From an uncultured Chloroflexia bacterium (GTDB lineage Bacteria > Chloroflexota > Anaerolineae > Anaerolineales > UBA4823), in contig CAWGZV010000003.1 of NCBI GenBank assembly GCA_963827155.1, positions 226,436-290,435 of the forward strand: a stretch of DNA of 64,000 nt, written 5' to 3'. Positions 8,456-17,537 of the stretch are shown in pieces (within the stretch, counting starts at the first letter, position 1; each line of letters opens with the position of its first letter). The translations under genes and the position numbers were made by a program. A model generated the notes under the pieces. It was not told the origin of the DNA. It did no database searches and saw nothing but the letters and a program-made list of their open reading frames with translations.

Positions 8456-11054
8456 ATGGAATTAAAACCAAAAAAACACCTCACAGCGTTCGATCGGGAA
8501 AAGCGGCTGAACGGCATGTTTTTCGGCCTGATCGCCGGATTTTGGTTGGGGGTAGGAATTTGGGGGATGGATGCGATCTCGCTTGCCTCAGCGCATGGCG
8601 ATCTACCCTGGTTGAAATTCTTGATTGGAACCCCACTCCTGATGATCATCGGGGCTTTAGCCGGCTGGCTGACGGCTTTCTTCGATCGGGCAGCGCTTGG
8701 TGTCCTGTTCTGGCTGCTGGCTTCGGTTGGGATTGTATGGATCGCCAGCCACATGCCGTTTGAAGGGCTTTCCTGGGCGATCGGAGTGCTCGACCACAAC
8801 TTCGCCGGGCTGGAAATCTACCCATTTGTTGAGAGCGCCCGGATTTGGATGAGCTTGCTTTATGTCGTCGTGGGCGCCATCACCGCAATTGGCGGAGCTT
8901 TTGAGGTATTCTTCGTCGAAGCAGCGACCAGCGCGGAAAGTCATTTCAGCCGGTTCATCAAGCTGGCAAGCTGCCTGATCATTTTCATCCCAATCGGGCT
9001 GGCAGTGGACAACTTGATCAACAGCTCATTAAGAAATCCGGTCCTGGGAGTTGACGACTTGGTCCAGATAGGATTGCAGGCCCGGACAGAAAACATTCCC
9101 AAGGAACAGCAGCGCCAAATGGGGGTGAGAAAATTGACTCCTTTTCAAGGTTTTCTCACCAATCCATATCGGATTATCCTGGGCACTTATGATCCTGAAA
9201 CGCTCGACGAATTGACCATCTATATCAATTTTTCAGGAGATTGGGGGATGTGCGCCGCGATTGGCGTCCAGCCTATGGTTTGTCATATAAGCTCGGAGCG
9301 CTATCTGTAACAAGCTCGCCTGCCTTATCAAGAACGGCTCTGTGGAGAGCTGTCATCTTAAGTTGGAAGAAGGGATCTCCCCTCCACCGAAGGAAACCTT
9401 TGAGCTATTAGATCAAAAATCCCTAAATTACGGAATCATCGGACAGCGCGGAACTGCTGTGATCGTGATTGCAGAGGACAGCCAGGGTGATCAAGTGAAG
9501 TGCCTGCTGCGCGAGGCCGGGGATATATACCTGGAATCGTGCACACCGGTCACAAGGCAATCGTTTGATCCGATGCCGCTGCCTCCAACCCCGACCTCAT
9601 CCGCTCCAAAGGCTGAACCAACGCAAACGGCAGCAGGTCCAGCCGAAATGACCCCTCAGGCTGCGCTGATAGACCCAAAGCAGCTCGAACTGCCGGTTCT
9701 GGACGGCGCTCCGAGATACCAAATTTCCCTCAACCTTTCAGATGACCTGGTTTCCTTTCAAGGAAAGGCCGAAGTAGAGGTGACTAATCGAACTGGGGCA
9801 GCGCTCTCGGAGCTGTATTTCCGCCTGCTCCCAAACGGTGACAGCAGCTATGGAAATGGTGGGCTGAAAGTGCTCCAGACCAGCATTAACGGTATGCCTG
9901 CAGAGACCGAGCTTTCTGCAGAAGACACCGTGCTTAATATTACCCTGCCGGATGGGCTTGAGCCCCTGGAAATGGTTCGGGTAGGTTTTCAATTCATTGG
10001 TGAGGTTCCCGTAGATTTCGGCGGAGGTCAGACCCCGGCAGGCTACGGGATTTACAACTACTCTGACGGCGTGCTTGCTCTTTCAGGATGGTATCCGATA
10101 TTGGCAGTATATGATGATCAGGGCTGGAACCTCGACCTACCTTCAGATCTCGGGGATTCGGTTTACAGCGAGACCGGTATATATCAGGTGAAACTTGAAA
10201 TGCCGGCTGGGACGCTTTCAGCAGCCAGTGGGGTGGAGGTAGACCGCCAGGAAGATGCAGGTCGCGTTAAAATTCGCTTCGAAGGTGGACCTGTGCGAGA
10301 TTTCTTCCTGGTCATCAGCCGAACTCTGAACGACCTCAGCGAACAGGTAGGCAGCGTTCAGGTGAATTCGTATTTTCAACCAGGGAGCGAAGCCGCTGGT
10401 GAGCAAGCGCTTTCGGTTGCGGTTGAATCGCTTAAAATTTTCAATGAGAAGTTTGGCGAGTATCCCTATCGGGAGCTGGATGTTGTTGCCGCACCGATGC
10501 GAAATGCGTTGGGTGTTGAGTTCCCGGGTATTGTCTTAATCGGAGCAAATCTTTATGATGCACCAGAAAAGCCTGAATTCAGCGTCTCGATCGCCCATGA
10601 AGTCGCTCATCAATGGTGGTATGGTGTGGTGGGGAACGATGTCTTTGATGAGCCCTGGCTTGATGAAGCGCCCACAACTTACAGCTCCAGCCTTTACTAT
10701 GAGTACGCGCTAGGTCCGGAATATGCGCAGGGTTTGCGCCAGTACTGGCAGGACCGATACGACAGGATACTAAGCGAAGGAGGGGACGATTCGATTACCG
10801 CGAGCCTCCCCCATTTCGAATCCCTCAACCGCCCGGCAGTCTACGGAGCGGTCGTTTACACCAAAGGCGCGCTGTTTTTCCAGGCGTTGCGTGAAGAGAT
10901 TGGTGACGAGGCTTTTTTTAAGGGGATGCAGGATTATTATCAAACAGAGTTCTTCAACATTGCCCGAACCGACGACCTGCTGGACGCGTTTGAGCAAGCA
11001 GCCGGGCGACCTTTGGATGATTTTTACCAGGAGTGGTTGAAACTGAAACCCTGA
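8456..11054 (+). CDS. Multi-TM membrane domain fused to an M1-family zinc aminopeptidase, frameshifted at about 9308
   Basis: Removing one T at 9308 joins the TM ORF (8456-9310) to ORF 9342-11054. Motifs GVEFP, AHEVAHQWW-(18 aa)-WLDE and VYTKGA. Confidence 0.8.
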
Positions 11055-11055
11055 A

Positions 11056-12070
11056 ATGAAAACTATAAAATCCGCGATCAATTTCTTTTCGAAAATTCTT
11101 GTCCTCCTGGTCCTGACGAGCTGTGGGGTACTGCGCTCTGCTCTGCCAGAGCCAACATCAACCGCCGGGCTGCCATCGCCTGCAGTCACATCTGAACCGA
11201 TTCGCGCGACTGAGGCAGGCACGGCTGATCCTGTGGTCTTGCCGGCATTCACTCAATTGCAACCGAGCCCGACAGCACTCGAAGAGATCCGCTTTGCAGT
11301 AATTGGGGATTACGGTGAGGGGAATTAGGGTGAGCTTGAGGTCTCAAACCTGGTAAAGAGCTGGACGCCAGATTTTGTTATCACGGTTGGAGACAATAAC
11401 TACCCAATCGGATCGGCTGAAACGATCGATCAGCGAGTGGGCGAGTATTATCACGAGTTTATCTACCCCTATCGCGGCAGCTATGGGGCAGGCGCCGATC
11501 GCAACCGCTTCTTCCCTTCCCCAGGCAATCATGATTACGACAGCTTCCTGGCACAGCCCTACCTGGACTACTTCGAGCTGCCGGGGAACGAGCGGTATTA
11601 TGATTTCACTTGGGGTCCAGTATATCTTCTCGCATTAGACAGCGATTTCGCGAACGCCAGATGGAGTCTCGCAAGTCTCTATTCAGGCTCAATGGGCGCA
11701 GGCCCGCCTGGCAGAATCGAAAGCAGCCTGGAATGTGGTCTATTTTCATCATGCCCCGTATTCATCGGGTTATCACGGCCCAACGGATTGGATGCGCTGG
11801 CCGTTCGCCGAATGGGGCGCATCGGTCATCTTCAGTGGGCACGATCACGTGTATGAACGGCTGATGATCGATGGGATCCCCTATTTCATCAATGGTTTGG
11901 GAGGCGGTCCAATCTATGCTTTTCTGGGGAACTCGGAAGGCAGCCAATTTCGCTACAACGATGATTATGGGGCGTTGCTCGCGACCGCTGATTCGCAGCA
12001 GATGTCCTTCGAATTCTATAATCGGGATGGTACTTTGATTGACAGCTACCAGGTCACCAAAAACCCCTGA
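11056..12070 (+). CDS. Calcineurin-like metallophosphoesterase lipoprotein (acid-phosphatase-like), in-frame TAG at 11326 and frameshift near 11650
   Basis: Lipobox LTSC. Motifs GDYG, VGDNNY, PGNHDY, FHHAPYSSG and SGHDH are spread over three ORF pieces. Confidence 0.85.
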
Positions 12071-12089
12071 AAATGTCGGAATTCCTATC

Positions 12090-12119
12090 TTGACAAGCGC
12101 CGTAAATCTATGATAAACT
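12090..12119 (+). promoter_or_regulatory. Sigma70-type promoter of the leader/GNAT operon
   Basis: TTGACA (12090-12095), 18-nt spacer, TG-A-TAAACT. Confidence 0.65.
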
Positions 12120-12160
12120 CTATCCGCTTAACCAAACCTTAACGAAAGGAGACGCACTCA

Positions 12161-12256
12161 ATGGAGAGCATGAAGAGCTACACATTCTGCAGCAGCCTCG
12201 CCGTTTTCAGCGGTGATGTTGATATGCCTTCTCGGAGTGCGCCTATCGATCGTTAG
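12161..12256 (+). CDS. Putative 31-aa leader peptide MESMKSYTFCSSLAVFSGDVDMPSRSAPIDR
   Basis: Strong SD AAAGGAG 9 nt upstream. Lies between the promoter and two terminators. Too short for the ORF track. Confidence 0.7.
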   Translation: MESMKSYTFCSSLAVFSGDVDMPSRSAPIDR

Positions 12257-12275
12257 ATCGAACTGCTGAACTGGT

Positions 12276-12318
12276 AACAGCCACGGTGCTCTCCAAAGCC
12301 CGTGGCTGTTTTGTTTTT
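12276..12318 (+). terminator. Leader terminator 1
   Basis: Perfect 11-bp stem AACAGCCACGG/CCGTGGCTGTT followed by TTGTTTTT. Confidence 0.85.
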
Positions 12319-12337
12319 ATCATTTCCTCTGCCATCG

Positions 12338-12374
12338 CCAGCCATGGGTCCGCTTAGTGGCTGGTTTTGTTTTT
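12338..12374 (+). terminator. Leader terminator 2
   Basis: CCAGCCAT/GTGGCTGG stem followed by TTTTGTTTTT. Its sequence resembles terminator 1. Confidence 0.8.
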
Positions 12375-12404
12375 CGAGTTGTTTTGGAAAAGATGGAGCA
12401 TGAG

Positions 12405-13262
12405 ATGACAGCGGCGGTTTCGTTCAACAATGTAACTAAGCAATTCCTGAAACCAGGCCCCTCACGTCGTGGTTGGTCCACCCGCATAAGCGAAAGGATC
12501 CCAGGAGCTGGTGTCTCGACTAAAGGGAAATTTTCTGGATTAGGGACGCAAGGACTGATGGAAGAAAAGCTGGCGATCGACCATCTAACCTTCACGGTTC
12601 ATGAAGCTGAGATTTTTGGAGTAGTGGGACAGTCAGGCACAGGAAAATCGACACTGATTCGCCTTGCTGCAGCGCTTCTTCAACCTGATGAAGGCGATGT
12701 GCGTGTGTTTGGCTTCAACACAATCCGCCAGCCAAATCAGGTGCAGCACTGGATAAACCGCTTCTCCATAGGCGCCAGCTTTCTCAAGCAGCTTTCTACA
12801 ATTGAAAATCTCATACAGGCAGCCAGGATGGCAGGTATATCGACGGGCGATGCACTTCTCCGGGCAGAGAACCTTTTGAAGAAATTAGGGATGGATCAGT
12901 CTGCGATGCTGATACCAATGGAACAGCTGAGCGAAGCTATGCTTCAGCTGGTGACTTTCACCCGGGCGATAATTTCACGCCCGCGACTGCTGCTGTTGGA
13001 CGACCCGGCCTACGGCTTGGATGCCGATTCTGGGGCTCGGATGATGAAGTTGATCCATGGATGGCGAGCTGAAACTGGAGGGACGGTAATTATTACTGGA
13101 AGGCGGCTCCAGGAAATGTCCCTGATTTGTGATCGGATCATAAGTATTCAGGATGGCGGCATCGGCGGATTAGATGCTCCCGAAGTTTTGGATATCCAGC
13201 TGCCCCTTTCTGCTCAGATCCAGACAAAACCGGTGGAAGCTCTTACGCTAGAAAGTGAATAG
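12405..13262 (+). CDS. ABC-type ATP-binding protein with degenerate catalytic motifs, no adjacent permease
   Basis: Walker A GQSGTGKST intact. Signature reads LSEAM, Walker B LLLLDD, H-loop ITGR. Confidence 0.8.
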   Translation: MTAAVSFNNVTKQFLKPGPSRRGWSTRISERIPGAGVSTKGKFSGLGTQGLMEEKLAIDHLTFTVHEAEIFGVVGQSGTGKSTLIRLAAALLQPDEGDVRVFGFNTIRQPNQVQHWINRFSIGASFLKQLSTIENLIQAARMAGISTGDALLRAENLLKKLGMDQSAMLIPMEQLSEAMLQLVTFTRAIISRPRLLLLDDPAYGLDADSGARMMKLIHGWRAETGGTVIITGRRLQEMSLICDRIISIQDGGIGGLDAPEVLDIQLPLSAQIQTKPVEALTLESE

Positions 13263-13276
13263 GAGAATTGAGAATT

Positions 13277-13841
13277 ATGACAATCAGCGAACCGCTTTTC
13301 GTTGGAGAAAAGATTACCCTTAGCGCATTCGACTTCGAACAAGACCCCCTTGTCGAGTTCTGGCTGGACACACGACGCAGATTTTATGCGCATGCTGAGC
13401 CTGGACATGGCAATGCCTATGTCTCCCGGCCAGGTCAGGAAGCGATATGAGGGTATCGAGAAATCTCAGGCAGACGATGCCGACAGCTACTATTTTCAGG
13501 TCAGGCTGAACGGCGAGCAGAAACTAATTGGATTTGGTGAAATCTACGGGATTGAATGGTCCAATGCAGCCGGATTTATCCGTCTGGGAATTGGAAACCA
13601 GACCGACCGCCGGAAAGGATATGGGAGCGAAATCATGAAGCTGCTGCAGAAATTTGCTTTCCACGAGTTGAATCTTTACCGTCTGACAGCATTAATAGCG
13701 GGCTACAACCAACCCGCAATCAGGCTCTTCAAAAAAAATAGATTTCAGGAGGAAGCTCGCTCCCGGCAGGCAATCCTCCGCTATGGTCGCCGATGGGATC
13801 TGCTGATATTTGGGCTTCTGGTGGATGATTGGGTTGGCTGA
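13277..13841 (+). CDS. RimJ/RimL-family GNAT acetyltransferase, frameshifted near 13348
   Basis: LFVGEKITL...GIGNQTDRRKGYGSE...FAFHELNLYRL...YNQPAIRLFKK. Confidence 0.85.
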
Positions 13842-13867
13842 TATTTCGAAAGTAAGGAGGTTGCAGA

Positions 13868-14452
13868 ATGGAGGATCTATTTCGCGGTGAACTTGTGCAC
13901 CTGGTGGCAGAAGATCCGGAAACGATAGCCGAGTCATTCAGCCGCTGGTCGAATGACTCGGAATATACGCGCCTGCTGTTCAGCGGTGTGACTTACCCCC
14001 GATCGAAGAAATCGGTCAAGGAGTGGATAGAAAAACAAAGAGAGAAGAACCCGCCGGAGTTCCTTCTTTTCATGATCCGGCGTCTCGAAGATGACCGACT
14101 GATCGGTGAAATTGGTTTAGACGGAATAAAATGGAACCACGGTACCTGCTTTGTCGGGATCAGCATTGGAGAGCGAGAGATGTGGGGCAAAGGTTATGGG
14201 ACGGATGCGATGCGAATTATCCTGCGTTTCGCCTTCACGGAGCTCAATCTGCACCGAATTTCACTGGATGTTTTTGAATACAACCCCCGCGCAATCCGCT
14301 CTTATGAAAAAGCAGGTTTTGTGAGCGAGGGTCGTGTGCGAAGTGTGCTGAACAAAGAGGGCAAGCGTTGGGATTTTCTTTTTATGGGGATCCTTAAAGA
14401 TGAGTGGGCCGCTCTGTACAAACCCGATTTGGAGGAAGGATTGGTGAAATGA
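13868..14452 (+). CDS. RimJ/RimL-family GNAT acetyltransferase
   Basis: GISIGEREMWGKGYGTDAM...FAFTELNLHRI...NPRAIRSYEKAGF. Confidence 0.92.
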   Translation: MEDLFRGELVHLVAEDPETIAESFSRWSNDSEYTRLLFSGVTYPRSKKSVKEWIEKQREKNPPEFLLFMIRRLEDDRLIGEIGLDGIKWNHGTCFVGISIGEREMWGKGYGTDAMRIILRFAFTELNLHRISLDVFEYNPRAIRSYEKAGFVSEGRVRSVLNKEGKRWDFLFMGILKDEWAALYKPDLEEGLVK

Positions 14453-15507
14453 ATGAGTTCCTAAAGGAGCACCAAGACTATTTCGATTTTGCTGCAATGC
14501 TGCCCGCAGGTTTCCAACTGCGCGAGGCCAGGTCTGATGACCTCGAACAGGTTGTGGGTTTACTCAATTCAGCTTCACACGATTTGCATGGGATTGATTC
14601 ATTCTCAATCGCGGAAATTGCTGGGGATTGGGAGCGGCCGGGCTTTAATCTGAAAACGGATTCGCAGGTTGCAGTGGCGCCGGACGGCATCATAGCGGCT
14701 TATTTTGATGTATACGATATCACCGAGGCCCATGTCCAGATGAACTGCTGGGGTCAGGTGCATCCGAATTTCACAGGGATGGGTCTTGCATCGGCGCTCT
14801 TAGCCTGGTGTGAAATGCGCTCGCGCGCCTCAGTATTAATGGCTCCACCAGGCACTAGGGTATCGCTCAATATAAGCACCCACGCGATCAACCAAAAAGC
14901 GATCCGAGTGCTGGAGCACTGCGGATTCAAACAAGTACGGCGAAGCCTCAGGATGGTCATTGAGCTGGATGGCATCATCCCTGAAGCTGAATGGCCTCCT
15001 GGGATCACAGTGCGGGAGTTCGTGCTTGGACAGGACGACGAAGCGATTATCCAGACCTTGAAAGAGGCATTTGCCGATCACTGGGGGGCGGTGGAGCAAT
15101 CTTTTGAGCTGACACTGAAGCGCTACCGCCATTTCTGGGCGACGGATGAAGTATTCGATCCTTCGCTATATTTCCTGGCGGTAGACGATGAACAGATCGC
15201 GGGAGTCAGCATGTGTTACAGTAAAATCGAGGAAGATCCCCTGATGGGTTGGGTTGCAAGCCTGGGGGTTCGAAGACCCTGGCGCCGTAAGGGCGTTGGA
15301 TTGGCGCTGCTCCGGCATTCTTTCCGGGCTATCCAACTGCGCGGGCAGCGGCGGGTAGGCCTTGGTGTGGATGCTGAGAACCTTACCGGTGCGACGCGAC
15401 TCTATGAGCGTGCCGGGATGCATTCTGATCCGAATTGGGAATGGCGCATTTTTGAAAAAGAGCTGCGACCTGGAATCGAGATAAGCCGGCAATCATTGGA
15501 GGAATAA
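14449..15507 (+). CDS. Tandem two-domain GNAT acetyltransferase (MshD-like architecture)
   Basis: Two acetyl-CoA motifs: VHPNFTGMGLA and VRRPWRRKGVG...GATRLYERAGM. ATGA overlap with the upstream gene. Confidence 0.88.
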   Translation: MNEFLKEHQDYFDFAAMLPAGFQLREARSDDLEQVVGLLNSASHDLHGIDSFSIAEIAGDWERPGFNLKTDSQVAVAPDGIIAAYFDVYDITEAHVQMNCWGQVHPNFTGMGLASALLAWCEMRSRASVLMAPPGTRVSLNISTHAINQKAIRVLEHCGFKQVRRSLRMVIELDGIIPEAEWPPGITVREFVLGQDDEAIIQTLKEAFADHWGAVEQSFELTLKRYRHFWATDEVFDPSLYFLAVDDEQIAGVSMCYSKIEEDPLMGWVASLGVRRPWRRKGVGLALLRHSFRAIQLRGQRRVGLGVDAENLTGATRLYERAGMHSDPNWEWRIFEKELRPGIEISRQSLEE

Positions 15508-15513
15508 GGAGAT

Positions 15514-16131
15514 ATGAAAATTAAGGCGGTGATCTGGGATTTGGGAGGCGTTCTGGTGCGGACGGAAGACGGTTTGCCGCGGCAGCAGCTGGCAGAGCGA
15601 TTGAAGATCTCGCGGACGGAATTGGAGCAGATTGTCTTCGGAGGGGCATCGGGGAAGCAGGCGCAAAAAGGGGAGATTACCAGCACTCAGCATTGGGAGA
15701 ACATCCGCAAGGTGTTTGGCATTCAGGTCAATGAAGTGAAAGCTTTTCAGGAGGAGTTCTGGGGAGGCGATGTGGTGGACTACGAGCTTATCGATCATAT
15801 CCGTGGCTTGAAGCGCCTTTCCTACACGACCGGGCTGTTGAGCAACGCATTCTCGGACTTACGTGAATATGTGAGCATGGAATGGAAAATTGCGGATGCA
15901 TTTGATCAAATGGTGATTTCGGCGGAAGTTCGATTAATGAAACCAGATGAGCGGATTTATCGACTGGCAATCAATCGATTGGATGTGCAACCTGGCGAAG
16001 CGGTCTTTATCGATGACATGCTAGAGAATGTCCAGGGGGCTCGAGCAGCGGGGATGCACGCCATCCAATTTCAGAGCCGAACTCAGGCGCTTGAAGACCT
16101 TGATAATATGCTGAATGGGAGGCTGTCGTGA
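15514..16131 (+). CDS. HAD-superfamily phosphatase (subfamily IA)
   Basis: WDLGGVL, LLSN, MKPD, FIDD motifs I-IV. Confidence 0.92.
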   Translation: MKIKAVIWDLGGVLVRTEDGLPRQQLAERLKISRTELEQIVFGGASGKQAQKGEITSTQHWENIRKVFGIQVNEVKAFQEEFWGGDVVDYELIDHIRGLKRLSYTTGLLSNAFSDLREYVSMEWKIADAFDQMVISAEVRLMKPDERIYRLAINRLDVQPGEAVFIDDMLENVQGARAAGMHAIQFQSRTQALEDLDNMLNGRLS

Positions 16132-17537
16132 GCAATTCTAGTCTGACATCTTTGAGCCTGGGCGAGGCAGTCCGTCTGATCAAGGTAAAGAAGCTGTCCC
16201 CGGTCGAGCTTACCAACGCCTATCTCAGCCGGATTGAAGCGCTGAATCCGAATTTGAACTGCTTCATCACCGTCACGGCAGAATTGGCGCTAGAACAGGC
16301 TCGCCAGGCAGAGGTGGATTTGATGCGGGCTGAGACCGGCAGCGGTCCATCACTGGGTTTGATCTATGGGGCGCCGCTGGCGCTGAAAGATCTCTTTGAG
16401 ACCGCGGGTGTACGAACAACAGCCGGTGCAATTTTCCATAATGAGAATATTCCAGAGCGAGATTCAGCGGCTTACCAGAAACTGCGCAGCGCCGGAGCGA
16501 TCCTGCTTGGGAAAACCAACCTGCATGAAATCGCATTGGGTCTCACCAGCGTAAATCCCCATTATGGAGCGGTGAGGAACCCCTGGTACACAGAGCGGAT
16601 TGCTGGAGGCTCGTCTGGCGGTTCAGGCGCCGCGCTGGCAGCCAGATTGTGCGCTGGATCGCTTGGAACGGATACCGGAGGCTCCATTCGTGTGCCGTCC
16701 GCGCTGTGCGGGATTGCAGGGCTCAAGCCGACAAAAGGCCGGGTGAGCTTGAGGGGAGTTATCCCCTTGAGCTGGAATCTGGACCATGTCGGTCCTATGG
16801 CGCGAAACATTGAAGACCTGGCGCTGCTGCTGCAGGTAATCGCCGGTTACGACCGGGAAGACCCAGCCTCGATCGATGTCTCGGTTCCTAACTATCTGGA
16901 TGGTCTTCGGGGTGGCGTTAAAGACTGGCGAATTGGGCTGGTTGATGACTCCTTTTTTCAGAAGACGGAGGAAGCAGTCCGGCTGCTTGTCAACCAGGCG
17001 GCGGCTGTGTTCGATACCCTCGGGGCATCGGTAGATCTCACCGGCTTCCCAGGCGCGTATCAGGCGGCGCTGGCGAACGGGATGATGACAACAGCAGACG
17101 CGGCAGTCTACTACTCCGATCGCTTGAAGGGTCAACCAGACGACCTGGGTGAAGATGTGCGCCAGCGCTTAAACATGGGTGCTGACCTGAGTATCAGCGA
17201 TTATATCCGGGCGCGTCGCAGCCAGGTCCTCCTCAGACGGCAGTTTGAGGAGTTTTTTGATCATTTTGACATCCTGCTTACGCCTACGACACCTGTCGCC
17301 GCGCCTCCAATCTCAGGACCTGACGCGATCGAGATGGCGGGGGTACTGACACGCTACACCGCTCCGTTCAATCTTACCGGTCTGCCGGCAATTTCTATCC
17401 CTTGCGGTTTCACGAGCGAGGGTTTACCTGCAGGTCTTCAGATGATCGCCCCGCCATGGCAAGAGGCCAGGCTGCTTCAAGCGGCTTTTGCTTATGAATC
17501 AGCAACTGAATGGCACAGGTTGGAACCTGAAGTATGA
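16128..17537 (+). CDS. Amidase-signature family enzyme
   Basis: LKDLF, GKTNLHE, GGSSGGS, GTDTGGSIRVP, GLKPT, FNLTGLPAISIP. Confidence 0.92.
   Translation: MSNSSLTSLSLGEAVRLIKVKKLSPVELTNAYLSRIEALNPNLNCFITVTAELALEQARQAEVDLMRAETGSGPSLGLIYGAPLALKDLFETAGVRTTAGAIFHNENIPERDSAAYQKLRSAGAILLGKTNLHEIALGLTSVNPHYGAVRNPWYTERIAGGSSGGSGAALAARLCAGSLGTDTGGSIRVPSALCGIAGLKPTKGRVSLRGVIPLSWNLDHVGPMARNIEDLALLLQVIAGYDREDPASIDVSVPNYLDGLRGGVKDWRIGLVDDSFFQKTEEAVRLLVNQAAAVFDTLGASVDLTGFPGAYQAALANGMMTTADAAVYYSDRLKGQPDDLGEDVRQRLNMGADLSISDYIRARRSQVLLRRQFEEFFDHFDILLTPTTPVAAPPISGPDAIEMAGVLTRYTAPFNLTGLPAISIPCGFTSEGLPAGLQMIAPPWQEARLLQAAFAYESATEWHRLEPEV

What the first reader, a model, noticed from the sequence alone, without database searches (positions are those of the whole stretch)
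12090..12405. Leader peptide with an interlocking double-terminator attenuator
Seen: a promoter, a strong SD, a 31-codon ORF (12161-12256), then two sequence-related terminators that share CAGCCAYGG...GTGGCTG plus a TTTTGTTTTT tract. The loop of terminator 1, TGCTCTCCA (12287-12295), is the exact reverse complement of TGGAGAGCA (12162-12170), which covers the leader start codon. A nested helix is also possible (TTCAGCGGT 12206-12214 with ACTGCTGAA 12262-12270). The 3' arm of terminator 1 (GTGGCTG) can pair with the 5' arm of terminator 2 (CAGCCAT). Inference: ribosome occupancy of the leader decides whether terminator 1 folds, and breaking it frees the strand that also disables terminator 2. 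That would make a two-lock switch sensing translation. The peptide has no amino-acid run, which suits drug or stress sensing better than starvation sensing.
Basis: partly seen in the sequence, partly recalled or inferred. Interest (0 to 1): 0.85.

Follow-up and report, generated by a model that had tools for sequence, protein, structure and literature searches.

The report
Translation-sensing leader with relayed double terminator
This is a real, widely conserved control region in Anaerolineae bacteria: a tiny translated leader plus two linked stop signals that probably switch on transporter, ribosome-protection and acetyltransferase genes when protein synthesis is impaired.

Summary
Promoter, Shine-Dalgarno site (SD), 31-codon uORF, two sequence-related terminators (T1, T2) and the 9-nt complement all lie where stated.

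The element is one copy of a conserved leader family. A covariance model hits 132 of 137 genomes of the window's family and 43 of 150 sampled genomes of its class. It hits none of about 135 genomes sampled from other classes of the phylum. Rfam has no match.

Comparison of 92 copies corrects the wiring:
- The conserved partner of the T1 loop is a 10-nt box (GGAGUGCGCC, 12234-12243) at the 3' end of the uORF, not the start codon.
- The same box also pairs with an anti-box between SD and AUG.
- Both pairings keep complementarity through compensatory changes.
- The uORF is kept in nearly all copies, in all three frames relative to the box, and stops 4-29 nt after the box start. So translation matters, not the peptide.

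Downstream genes are ABC ATPases, ABC-F proteins, exporters and GNATs, with single RsgA and RIO cases.

Most likely it is a ribosome-dependent transcription attenuator of the vmlR/bmrCD type. It is a new variant of a known kind. No experiment exists.

The parts
12090..12119 (+). Sigma-70-type promoter: TTGACA, 18-nt spacer, TG-extended TAAACT. The transcription start is inferred near 12126.
   Evidence: 10 of 12 positions match. By regex, a TTGAC[A/C] lies 120-170 nt upstream of the box in 16 of 17 first copies; the 17th (L024) has one 119 nt upstream.
12145..12151 (+). Shine-Dalgarno site AAAGGAG of the leader ORF
   Evidence: An SD-like motif followed by ATG within 3-15 nt is present in 91 of 92 copies.
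12151..12159 (+). Anti-box (GACGCACUC here; family consensus GGCGCACUYC) between SD and AUG. It pairs with the box to form helix P1, the inferred anti-antiterminator.
   Evidence: The minimum-energy fold pairs it with 12235-12241. P1 has 79.8% of cells paired, and 6 of 10 pairs show changes on both sides. The within-copy duplex is -16.8 kcal/mol against -15.7 permuted, with 0 of 2000 permutations reaching it.
12161..12256 (+). Leader ORF (uORF), 31 codons, stop TAG at 12254-12256
   Evidence: The frame set by SD+ATG is open up to the box in 90 of 91 copies, against 29 and 35 of 91 for the other two frames. The frame relative to the box differs between copies.
12162..12170 (+). Specific to this copy.
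12193..12221 (+). Hairpin P2 inside the uORF (CCGC...GCGG type). Possibly a pause hairpin. Weak evidence.
   Evidence: mean z = -0.91, and 48% of 92 copies have z below -1. Stem changes were seen by eye.
12234..12243 (+). Box GGAGUGCGCC, the switching strand. It pairs either with the anti-box or with the top of the T1 5' arm plus the T1 loop.
   Evidence: Invariant in the 17 BLAST-found copies. 31 of 92 copies carry variants, and their partners carry matching changes.
12246..12261 (+). Small hairpin P3 that holds the stop codon. Weak evidence.
   Evidence: mean z = -0.41.
12277..12318 (+). Terminator T1: hairpin 12277-12309 and U-tract 12310-12318
   Evidence: The helix has 99.8% of cells paired, and 6 of 8 pairs show changes on both sides, in 52 copies.
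12285..12294 (+). Top of the T1 5' arm plus loop (GGUGCUCUCC), complementary to the box. This is the inferred antiterminator partner. The window copy has one U-U mismatch.
   Evidence: The window duplex is -17.3 kcal/mol.
12299..12308 (+). T1 3' arm, the relay strand, complementary to the T2 5' arm at 12339-12348
12338..12374 (+). Terminator T2: hairpin 12338-12364 and U-tract 12365-12374. It has the same stem type as T1 and an unrelated loop.
   Evidence: A second terminator is present in 74 of 92 copies.
12405..13262 (+). Regulated gene: a single-domain DrrA-like ABC ATPase. SD GGAG at 12395-12398. An in-frame ATG at 12393 is also possible.
   Evidence: Pfam ABC_tran 4.3e-20. The best NCBIfam match is drrA, at 145 bits, below its cut-off of 312.
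13302..15507 (+). Three GNAT acetyltransferase ORFs on the same strand, probably co-transcribed: 13302-13841, 13868-14452 and 14404-15507.
   Evidence: Pfam Acetyltransf_3 and Acetyltransf_1. In at least 15 other copies the ATPase is followed by a GNAT with the N-terminal sequence of the class here called GNAT190; judged by eye, no Pfam scan of these.

Best explanation
The region is one copy of a conserved, cis-acting, ribosome-dependent transcription attenuator. It controls the ABC ATPase/GNAT operon downstream.

One strand, the box at the 3' end of the leader ORF, has two alternative partners:
- the anti-box in the SD-AUG spacer, giving helix P1, an anti-antiterminator;
- the top of the T1 5' arm plus the T1 loop, giving the antiterminator.

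Three states are inferred.
1. No ribosome on the leader. P1 forms, T1 and T2 fold, and transcription stops.
2. A ribosome runs to the stop codon, which lies 4-29 nt after the box start. It covers the box, T1 and T2 fold, and transcription stops.
3. Ribosomes are stalled or queued at the beginning of the leader ORF. They cover the anti-box while the box stays free. The box captures the T1 5' arm and loop as they emerge, so T1 cannot form. The unpaired T1 3' arm then captures the T2 5' arm, so T2 cannot form either. RNA polymerase reads into the operon.

The signal would therefore be impaired translation in general, from ribosome-targeting antibiotics or other translation stress, and not shortage of one amino acid.

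Shown here: the parts, their conservation, the conserved complementarities, the conserved ORF, and the gene content.
Inferred: the order of events, the polarity (stalling turns the operon on), and the nature of the signal.
For: 1. Conservation.
- BLAST finds the region in relatives.
- Covariance model R1 hits 132 of 137 genomes of the window's family, including 46 of 46 high-quality genomes and 55 of 55 genera. Each has 1-5 copies, and 150 matches are listed with 102 more unlisted.
- R1 hits 43 of 150 other genomes sampled across the class.
- In the phylum sample it hits 9 of 12 same-order genomes, 0 of 3 genomes of other orders of the class, and 0 of about 135 genomes of other classes.
- A pattern scan of one genome per species gave 28 true copies among the 80 loci listed. 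27 carry Anaerolineae or Chloroflexota-type record titles and 1 is titled Bacteroidota.

2. The leader ORF is real, but its peptide is not conserved.
- SD+ATG is present in 91 of 92 copies.
- That frame is open up to the box in 90 of 91 copies, against 29 and 35 of 91 for the other two frames.
- The stop lies +4 to +29 nt from the box start in 88 of 91 copies.
- The frame relative to the box is A in 63 copies, B in 25 and C in 4 (plus three read by eye).
- No residue dominates, and identical-residue runs are at most 4 long.

3. Box pairing with the T1 5' arm and loop.
- Within-copy duplex -17.7 kcal/mol, against -16.0 when partners are permuted between copies (0 of 2000 permutations reach it) and -8.6 with shuffled partners.
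- In the 31 copies with a variant box: -17.0 against -14.3, 0 of 2000.
- Compensating pair types at box position 2: G-C 62, U-A 8, A-U 3, C-G 1. Position 4: G-C 81, with C-G 1 and U-A 1. Position 7: C-G 84, with U-A 1 (examples).

4. Box pairing with the anti-box.
- Within-copy duplex -16.8 kcal/mol against -15.7 permuted (0 of 2000) and -9.9 shuffled.
- 6 of 10 pairs show changes on both sides.

5. The switch in folding.
- The nascent RNA was folded up to the end of the T1 loop, with the start region masked as a stalled ribosome would mask it. The box then pairs with T1 in 82 of 88 copies.
- With the antiterminator enforced, the T1 3' arm pairs with the T2 5' arm in 69 of 71 copies.

6. The relay.
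- Within-copy T1 3' : T2 5' duplex -17.8 kcal/mol against -15.2 permuted, 0 of 2000, n = 74. This is comparable with T2's own stem at -18.2.
- The GUGG-type and ACGG-type stems go together in T1 and T2 of one copy.
- This stem type occurs only twice in the window's genome, both times as T1 of the two copies.

7. Cis evolution. Paralogous copies in one genome carry different boxes and T1 stems, each with its own matching partner (L145 against the window; L181 against L211).

8. Gene content. First downstream genes among 92 copies: DrrA-like ABC ATPase 34, ~190-aa GNAT 16, ABC-F 9, TMD-NBD exporters 9, double GNAT 7, unassigned 16, no ORF 1. One ABC-F scores above the cut-off of NCBIfam NF000355, ribosomal protection-like ABC-F (437 against 380). 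Of six scanned among the 16 unassigned, one is an RsgA GTPase, one a RIO kinase, one an MFS transporter, two are ABC-2 permeases and one a GNAT protein.

9. The same logic has been shown experimentally for vmlR (abstract) and bmrB-bmrCD (abstract).
Against: - No experimental or transcript-end data exist for any copy.
- At equilibrium and without any mask, the nascent RNA already prefers the antiterminator in 53 of 88 copies and P1 in only 27. The anti-box would therefore have to act kinetically.
- In the window copy the antiterminator takes only 2 nt of the 10-bp T1 stem and has a U-U mismatch. In 40-50% of copies it does not extend beyond box position 10. T1's lower stem could then still form as a pseudoknot.
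- Copies were collected by sequence or model similarity. Conservation of the box, P1 and T1 is therefore partly due to how they were found.
- The permutation controls ignore phylogeny.
- Function is untested for every downstream gene, including the permease-less ABC ATPase and the GNATs in the window.
- 18 of 92 copies lack T2, so the relay is not essential to the family.
Confidence: 0.65

Rival explanations
1. Same parts, opposite polarity. Active translation of the leader melts P1. After the ribosome leaves, the box is free to form the antiterminator, so the operon is on while translation works and off when no ribosomes load. This would be a translation-coupling check.
For: The box has two conserved partners. 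Without a mask the antiterminator is the equilibrium choice in 53 of 88 nascent RNAs. The stop codon lies close to the box.
Against: A ribosome at a stop codon 4-29 nt after the box start should cover the box while T1 is being made. The gene content (ABC-F, exporters, GNATs, RsgA) matches genes that are induced by translation inhibitors in studied systems (abstracts). Two tandem terminators suggest a tightly closed default state.
Confidence: 0.13
2. The T1 loop pairs with the start-codon region (12162-12170 with 12287-12295), so a ribosome at the AUG directly decides whether T1 folds.
For: An exact 9-nt complement exists in the window. Equal or longer complements arose in 11 of 5000 shuffles. 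Compared with the same-genus copy L011, one base differs on each strand, and both differences add a pair (by eye).
Against: Among 88 copies only the window has a complement longer than 5 nt. The median duplex energy elsewhere is -3.25 kcal/mol, against -11.0 in the window. The conserved and covarying partner of the loop is the box. At most this is a lineage-specific addition.
Confidence: 0.07
3. A riboswitch-like or protein-binding leader. The invariant box, the T1 loop and the shared T1/T2 stems are recognition sites for a ligand or an RNA-binding protein, and the ORF is incidental.
For: The box and flanks are conserved more strictly than base pairing alone needs. T1 and T2 share stem sequences.
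Against: - The ORF with SD is kept in 90 of 91 copies, against about a third for the other frames.
- The stretch between the AUG and the box varies in sequence, and the AUG-to-box distance ranges from 39 to 85 nt.
- Paralogues in one genome carry different boxes and stems, each with matching partners. This argues against one shared trans factor.
- No Rfam family reaches its threshold. The best match is 25.3 bits against a gathering score of 55, on the opposite strand.
Confidence: 0.08
4. The T1-terminated leader RNA (about 190 nt), or its peptide, is itself the product and acts in trans, as described for the attenuator RNA rnTrpL and peptide peTrpL. This is not exclusive of cis attenuation.
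For: Several copies per genome share box-like sequences that could pair with each other's anti-boxes and loops. One metatranscriptome contig of 206 nt covers only 12075-12280. The precedent comes from titles and abstract openings listed.
Against: The peptide is not conserved and is read in three frames. The contig starts upstream of the predicted transcription start, has depth 2.7, and could be DNA. The structural genes start right behind the terminators, which is what a cis element needs.
Confidence: 0.05
5. An independent small-protein gene, such as a bacteriocin or RiPP precursor, with its own terminators next to an exporter.
For: A strong SD, a short ORF and a neighbouring ABC gene.
Against: There is no conserved peptide, and three reading frames are used over the conserved nucleotides. 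The conserved features are RNA pairings. Downstream genes include GNATs, ABC-F, RsgA and RIO. The window shows no promoter for the downstream gene.
Confidence: 0.02

Closest known systems
vmlR leader of Bacillus subtilis (Takada et al. 2022, PMC9226507; abstract read)
   Same: A uORF in the leader. Stalling on it prevents an anti-antiterminator, an antiterminator forms, and an intrinsic terminator is bypassed. The regulated gene is an ABC-F, as in 9 of 92 copies here.
   Different: - No Rfam family matches.
- Here the anti-antiterminator strand lies in the SD-AUG spacer and the switching strand at the uORF stop.
- Most copies have two terminators linked by a strand relay.
- The same leader precedes five recurrent gene families, plus single RsgA, RIO, MFS and ABC-2 permease cases.
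- The host class is Anaerolineae.
bmrB-bmrCD attenuator of B. subtilis (Reilman et al. 2014, PMC4191407; abstract read)
   Same: Translation of a short upstream ORF is required. There are three alternative stem-loops. Induction is by antibiotics that target protein synthesis. The regulated gene is an ABC exporter of the TMD-NBD type, as in 9 of 92 copies here.
   Different: Per the section headings, the bmrB terminator lies within its coding region. Here the terminators follow the uORF. There is no double terminator, and no known family-wide conserved box.
ermK and mef/mel(msrD) leaders (review passages in PMC5418344)
   Same: Transcription attenuation in which antibiotic-induced stalling in a leader ORF favours an antiterminator.
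   Different: Those sense macrolides through particular leader peptides. Here no peptide is conserved. From memory only, ermK has two terminators in its leader. The original paper (PMC208150) is not held, so this is unchecked.
Classic amino-acid operon attenuators (trp, his, leu, pheL)
   Same: The logic of four successive strands (1:2, 2:3, 3:4), with a ribosome at the stop codon masking strand 2.
   Different: There is no run of regulatory codons. Strand 1 lies upstream of the AUG. The downstream genes are not biosynthetic.

Membership tests
Ribosome-dependent transcription attenuators of resistance/translation-stress genes (vmlR, bmrCD, ermK, msrD type) | Short ORF with its own ribosome-binding site in the leader | tested here: met
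   SD+ATG in 91 of 92 copies. The frame is open up to the box in 90 of 91, against 29 and 35 of 91 in the other frames.
Ribosome-dependent transcription attenuators of resistance/translation-stress genes (vmlR, bmrCD, ermK, msrD type) | Intrinsic terminator between the leader ORF and the structural gene, with no separate promoter | tested here: met
   The T1 helix has 99.8% of cells paired, with double changes in 6 of 8 pairs. U-tracts are present. In the window 30 nt separate the T2 U-tract from the ATG, and no promoter-like site lies there.
Ribosome-dependent transcription attenuators of resistance/translation-stress genes (vmlR, bmrCD, ermK, msrD type) | Mutually exclusive anti-antiterminator, antiterminator and terminator structures | tested here: met
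   The box pairs with the anti-box or with the T1 5' arm and loop. Both pairings exceed permutation and shuffle controls and keep pairing through compensatory changes. The overlap with the T1 stem is only 2-5 nt, so exclusivity is inferred, not shown.
Ribosome-dependent transcription attenuators of resistance/translation-stress genes (vmlR, bmrCD, ermK, msrD type) | Read-through induced by ribosome stalling on the leader ORF | not testable with these tools
   Only masked-fold modelling was possible. The one RNA run found is contigs only.
Ribosome-dependent transcription attenuators of resistance/translation-stress genes (vmlR, bmrCD, ermK, msrD type) | Downstream gene counteracts translation inhibitors | tested here: inconclusive
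   One ABC-F scores above the NF000355 cut-off. The exporters, GNATs and the window's DrrA-like ATPase are assigned only at family level.
Amino-acid biosynthetic operon attenuators (trp/his/leu type) | Run of codons for the regulating amino acid in the leader peptide | tested here: not met
   No residue exceeds 11.3% of the variable part, and identical-residue runs are at most 4 long, in 88 peptides.
Any described RNA family (Rfam 15) | Match reaching the family's gathering score | tested here: not met
   The best match is flg-Rhizobiales at 25.3 bits against a gathering score of 55, on the opposite strand.

The most novel reading that the evidence does not exclude
One portable leader wires a class-wide translation-stress regulon in Anaerolineae, comprising ABC-F, exporter, permease-less ABC ATPase and GNAT genes, with RsgA and RIO each found in one copy.

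The leader opens two tandem terminators with a single sensing event, by a strand relay. The antiterminator frees the T1 3' arm, and that arm then disarms T2. This gives a very low basal level with full inducibility.

I found no description of such a relayed double terminator in the searches.

Because every copy in a cell shares related box sequences, terminated leader RNAs might in addition cross-talk in trans.
Probability: 0.45. Interest if true: 0.8.

Novelty: new variant of a known kind. Interest (0 to 1): 0.68.

Why it matters
Leader-ORF attenuators that sense ribosome-targeting drugs are known mainly from Firmicutes and Actinobacteria, one gene at a time. Here a single recognisable leader is found in 132 of 137 searched genomes of one family and across its class. 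It sits in front of several gene families that plausibly protect translation or remove drugs.

- It gives a sequence handle for predicting the translation-stress or antibiotic response of abundant but poorly cultivated sludge and sediment bacteria.
- It marks genes of unknown role, namely the permease-less DrrA-like ATPase and the ~190-aa and double GNATs, as candidates for that response.
- It offers a natural test case for a two-terminator relay and for sensing that depends on where the ribosome sits rather than on the peptide.
- It is also a candidate new RNA family for Rfam, with more than 300 members detected.

Tried and rejected
- Rfam with permissive E-values: 7 weak matches and none near its gathering score.
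- The simple terminator scanner missed T1 and T2 because its loop limit is 8 nt.
- RNAalifold on the MAFFT alignment A2 recovered only T1, because the 5' part and the loops are out of register. I therefore used a covariance-model alignment and per-copy duplex mapping with permutation controls.
- I did not build a second model for the antiterminator, so its pair counts come from my own script and not from the count of structure pairs.
- Hairpins P2 and P3 are only weakly better than shuffles, with mean z of -0.91 and -0.41. They are reported as weak.
- RNA evidence: one metatranscriptome run was found, holding 0.07 of the sampled words. Its single 206-nt contig covers 12075-12280 at depth 2.7. 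It starts upstream of the predicted transcription start and may be DNA, so it is not used as evidence for transcription or termination.
- A generic-terminator explanation for the T1/T2 likeness is rejected. The GCC[A/G][C/T]GG...CC[A/G][C/T]GGC stem followed by a T-tract occurs only twice in the 4.9-Mb genome, both times as T1 of the two copies.
- A small-protein or RiPP reading is rejected because three reading frames are used.
- Literature: no paper holds Anaerolineae + leader peptide + attenuation. The 5 papers with Anaerolineae + riboswitch are unrelated, judged from titles and abstract openings only. The search for two terminators + leader peptide and related terms listed nothing with a relay, again from titles and abstract openings only. 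Supplements were not consulted.
Full report
**What is in the window**

Reading 11700-12900 confirms every item of the observation.
- Promoter: TTGACA at 12090, an 18-nt spacer, and TG-extended TAAACT ending at 12119. It matches 10 of 12 positions and is one of only two promoter-like sites in 11000-17000.
- SD and uORF: AAGGAG at 12146-12151, then a 31-codon ORF at 12161-12256.
- T1: hairpin 12277-12309, followed by TTTGTTTTT.
- T2: hairpin 12338-12364, followed by TTTTGTTTTT.
- The whole leader folds far better than shuffles: -104.8 kcal/mol, z = -4.29, 0 of 200 shuffles as good.
- The 9-nt complement between the T1 loop (12287-12295) and the start region (12162-12170) is exact.

Downstream genes:
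- a single-domain DrrA-like ABC ATPase (ATG 12405 to 13262);
- three GNAT acetyltransferase ORFs;
- a HAD hydrolase;
- an amidase.

No permease follows the ATPase. Only 30 nt separate the T2 U-tract from the ATG.

Rfam has nothing. The best match is 25.3 bits against a gathering score of 55, on the other strand.

**It is a conserved family**

BLAST of the 316 nt against 40 relatives found the region in three same-genus genomes. Its 3' half (uORF end plus T1) was found in many other genera. I took 16 loci from those hits.

All 17 copies share the following:
- the promoter;
- an SD of the form GAAAGGA;
- a motif GGCGCACUYC between SD and AUG;
- an invariant GGAGUGCGCC near the end of the short ORF;
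- a T1 with a conserved loop (GGUGCGCUCC);
- a second terminator with the same stem but an unrelated loop. In 16 of the 17 it ends in a U-tract. In L024 it is degenerate, and my scripts did not detect it.

Where the printed extract reaches the structural gene, it starts within about 10-110 nt of T2.

It gave 28 further copies with a T-tract. 27 are in records titled Anaerolineae, Anaerolineales, Anaerolineaceae or Chloroflexota-type, and one is titled Bacteroidota. The 52 other loci are chance matches in GC-rich genomes without a T-tract.

I built a covariance model, R1, from the 45 copies. Its hits were:
- 2 copies in the window's own genome;
- 132 of 137 genomes of its family, including 46 of 46 high-quality genomes and 55 of 55 genera, with 1-5 copies each. 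150 matches are listed and 102 more are unlisted;
- 43 of 150 other genomes sampled across the class;
- in a phylum-wide sample, 9 of 12 same-order genomes, 0 of 3 from other orders of the class, and 0 of about 135 from other classes.

The model's sensitivity limits what "not found" means in the last group.

After removing identical copies I worked with 92.

**The ORF is kept, the peptide is not**

I used a rule that ignores reading frames: the first ATG 3-15 nt after the first SD-like motif. Results:
- 91 of 92 copies have SD+ATG.
- That frame stays open up to the box in 90 of 91 copies. The two other frames are open in 29 and 35 of 91.
- The stop lies +4 to +29 nt from the first base of the box in 88 of 91 copies.

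Yet the ORF enters the invariant box in different frames (three copies read by eye):
- 63 copies read ...RSAPVDR*;
- 25 read ...SECAC*;
- 4 use the third frame.

The N-terminal parts are unrelated. No residue exceeds 11.3%, and no run is longer than 4. So the nucleotides of the box are conserved as RNA. What is conserved about the ORF is that a ribosome starts at a fixed place and stops just behind the box.

**Two partners for the box**

The box, often extended by CUGU, is complementary to the top of the T1 5' arm plus the T1 loop. It is also complementary to the anti-box between SD and AUG.

| Pairing | Within-copy mean (kcal/mol) | Partners permuted between copies | Shuffled partner | In the 31 copies with a variant box |
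|---|---|---|---|---|
| Box : T1 5' arm + loop | -17.7 | -16.0 (sd 0.18; 0 of 2000 reach the observed value) | -8.6 | -17.0 vs -14.3 (0 of 2000) |
| Box : anti-box region | -16.8 | -15.7 (0 of 2000) | -9.9 | -16.7 vs -14.6 (0 of 2000) |

Per-position partner tables show compensating types:
- box position 2 with its T1 partner: G-C 62, U-A 8, A-U 3, C-G 1;
- position 4: G-C 81, C-G 1, U-A 1;
- position 7: C-G 84, U-A 1;
- positions 5 and 8 switch between G-U and Watson-Crick pairs.

Examples are visible:
- GUAGUGCGCC with GGCGCACUAC;
- GUACUGCGCC with GGUGCAGUAC;
- GAAGUGCGCC with GGUGCGCUUC.

On the model-fitted alignment of 52 copies:
- P1 has 79.8% of cells paired, and 6 of 10 pairs show double changes;
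- T1 has 99.8% of cells paired, and 6 of 8 pairs show double changes;
- the slid controls give 33-48% of cells paired.

Paralogues in one genome differ in box and stem, and each has its own matching partner. Examples are the window against L145 and L181 against L211. This fits cis pairing and not a shared trans factor.

The start-codon/T1-loop complement is real but private to this copy. Among 88 copies the window alone exceeds 5 nt. The median duplex energy elsewhere is -3.25 kcal/mol, against -11.0 here.

In 5000 shuffles of the window's leader, a complement of 9 nt or more arose 11 times. So it may be a lineage-specific addition or a coincidence. It is not the family's mechanism.

The window's T1 loop (GCUCUCC instead of GCGCUCC) has one U-U mismatch with the box.

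**The relay**

A second terminator is present in 74 of 92 copies by a strict rule. By gene class:
- ABC ATPase copies: 32 of 34;
- ~190-aa GNAT copies: 16 of 16;
- ABC-F copies: 7 of 9;
- exporter copies: 2 of 9.

The T1 3' arm pairs with the T2 5' arm at -17.8 kcal/mol on average. T2's own stem is -18.2. Permuted partners give -15.2 (sd 0.29), and 0 of 2000 permutations reach the observed value.

Stem types go together. 10 copies have GUGG in both terminators and 28 have ACGG in both, while only 1 copy combines ACGG with GUGG.

The stem is not a common terminator of this genome. It occurs only twice in 4.9 Mb, both times as T1 of the two copies.

When the antiterminator is enforced in a fold, the T1 3' arm pairs with the T2 5' arm in 69 of 71 copies. 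T2 has no other conserved competitor.

**Model and its weak points**

I folded the nascent RNA up to the end of the T1 loop:
- Without a mask, the box pairs with the anti-box in 27 of 88 copies and with T1 in 53 of 88.
- With the start region masked, as by a ribosome held at or near the AUG, the box pairs with T1 in 82 of 88 copies.

I therefore propose that ribosomes stalled or queued early on the leader hide the anti-box and leave the box free to block T1, and through the relay T2. With no ribosome, P1 forms. With a ribosome at the stop codon, the box is covered. Both of these states let the terminators fold.

This is the logic shown experimentally for vmlR (abstract) and bmrB-bmrCD (abstract).

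The weak points are:
- P1 is not the equilibrium winner, so it must act kinetically.
- The antiterminator overlaps the T1 stem by only 2-5 nt, and by 2 nt in the window, so a pseudoknot with a shortened T1 stem is conceivable.
- The polarity is inferred from gene content.
- All collections were made by similarity, and the permutation tests ignore phylogeny.

**Gene content**

First genes behind the 92 leaders:

| First downstream gene | Copies |
|---|---|
| DrrA-like ABC ATPase | 34 |
| ~190-aa Acetyltransf_3 GNAT | 16 |
| ABC-F | 9 |
| TMD-NBD exporters | 9 |
| Double GNAT | 7 |
| Unassigned | 16 |
| No ORF found | 1 |

- Some of the 16 unassigned are mis-picked ORFs.
- Six were scanned: one RsgA GTPase, one RIO kinase, one MFS transporter, two ABC-2 permeases and one GNAT protein.
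- One ABC-F passes NCBIfam NF000355, ribosomal protection-like ABC-F, at 437 against a cut-off of 380.
- The ATPase is followed by an ABC-2 permease in 9 loci. In at least 15 loci, as in the window, it is followed by the ~190-aa GNAT (N-termini compared by eye).

**Verdict**

This is a real, conserved, unannotated leader family. It works most likely as a translation-sensing transcription attenuator. That kind is known, but the architecture is new: an anti-box in the SD-AUG spacer, a box at the stop codon, use of any reading frame, and a relayed double terminator. It also occurs in a class where I found nothing published. Nothing here has been tested experimentally.

Noticed in passing
L145:1501-1671 (own genome, contig C2 598273-598443, minus strand; outside the window): A second copy of the leader in the same genome (59.5 bits). 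Its box is GGAUUGCGCC and its T1 loop is changed to match. It has a single terminator, and by its N-terminal sequence a TMD-NBD ABC exporter gene starts about 45 nt after T1.
   Followed up: partly
window 11056-12070: The upstream calcineurin-like metallophosphoesterase is split over several overlapping ORFs in different frames (11056-11328, 11437-11856, 11735-12070). This could be frameshifts or a decaying gene.
   Followed up: no
window 13302-13841: The first GNAT behind the ATPase lacks the usual N-terminus of its homologues (SLFEG..GPIDHEKDPE) and starts at a TTG. It may be truncated or frameshifted. The next two GNAT ORFs overlap (13868-14452 and 14404-15507).
   Followed up: no
window 12405-15507 and loci L010, L011, L014, L102, L146, L148 and others: A DrrA-like ABC ATPase with no permease, directly followed by GNAT genes, recurs in at least 15 loci. 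In 9 other loci the same ATPase is followed by an ABC-2 permease. The role of the permease-less form is unexplained.
   Followed up: partly
L186:1742-2758 and L191:1842-2774: In other Anaerolineae the same leader precedes an RsgA ribosome-biogenesis GTPase (Pfam 1.2e-50) and a RIO-domain kinase (2.6e-33). This links the leader to ribosome-related genes beyond transport and acetylation.
   Followed up: partly
L009 (same-genus genome G004): Its uORF differs by a 1-nt frame shift from the sister genome's copy (L010). It runs for 58 codons through T1. This may be an assembly error or a broken copy.
   Followed up: no
L085, about 110 nt after T1: The ABC-F gene behind this leader has a stop at codon 7 (MSILNC*). 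It may be a frameshift or a pseudogene.
   Followed up: no
window 12075-12280: A 206-nt contig of a sediment metatranscriptome matches only this stretch, from the promoter to the T1 5' arm, with 4 differences at depth 2.7. It is too weak to interpret.
   Followed up: partly
window 12127-12143: A direct repeat TTAAC-N5-6-TTAAC lies right after the predicted transcription start. It is kept in several genera, and its role is unknown.
   Followed up: no
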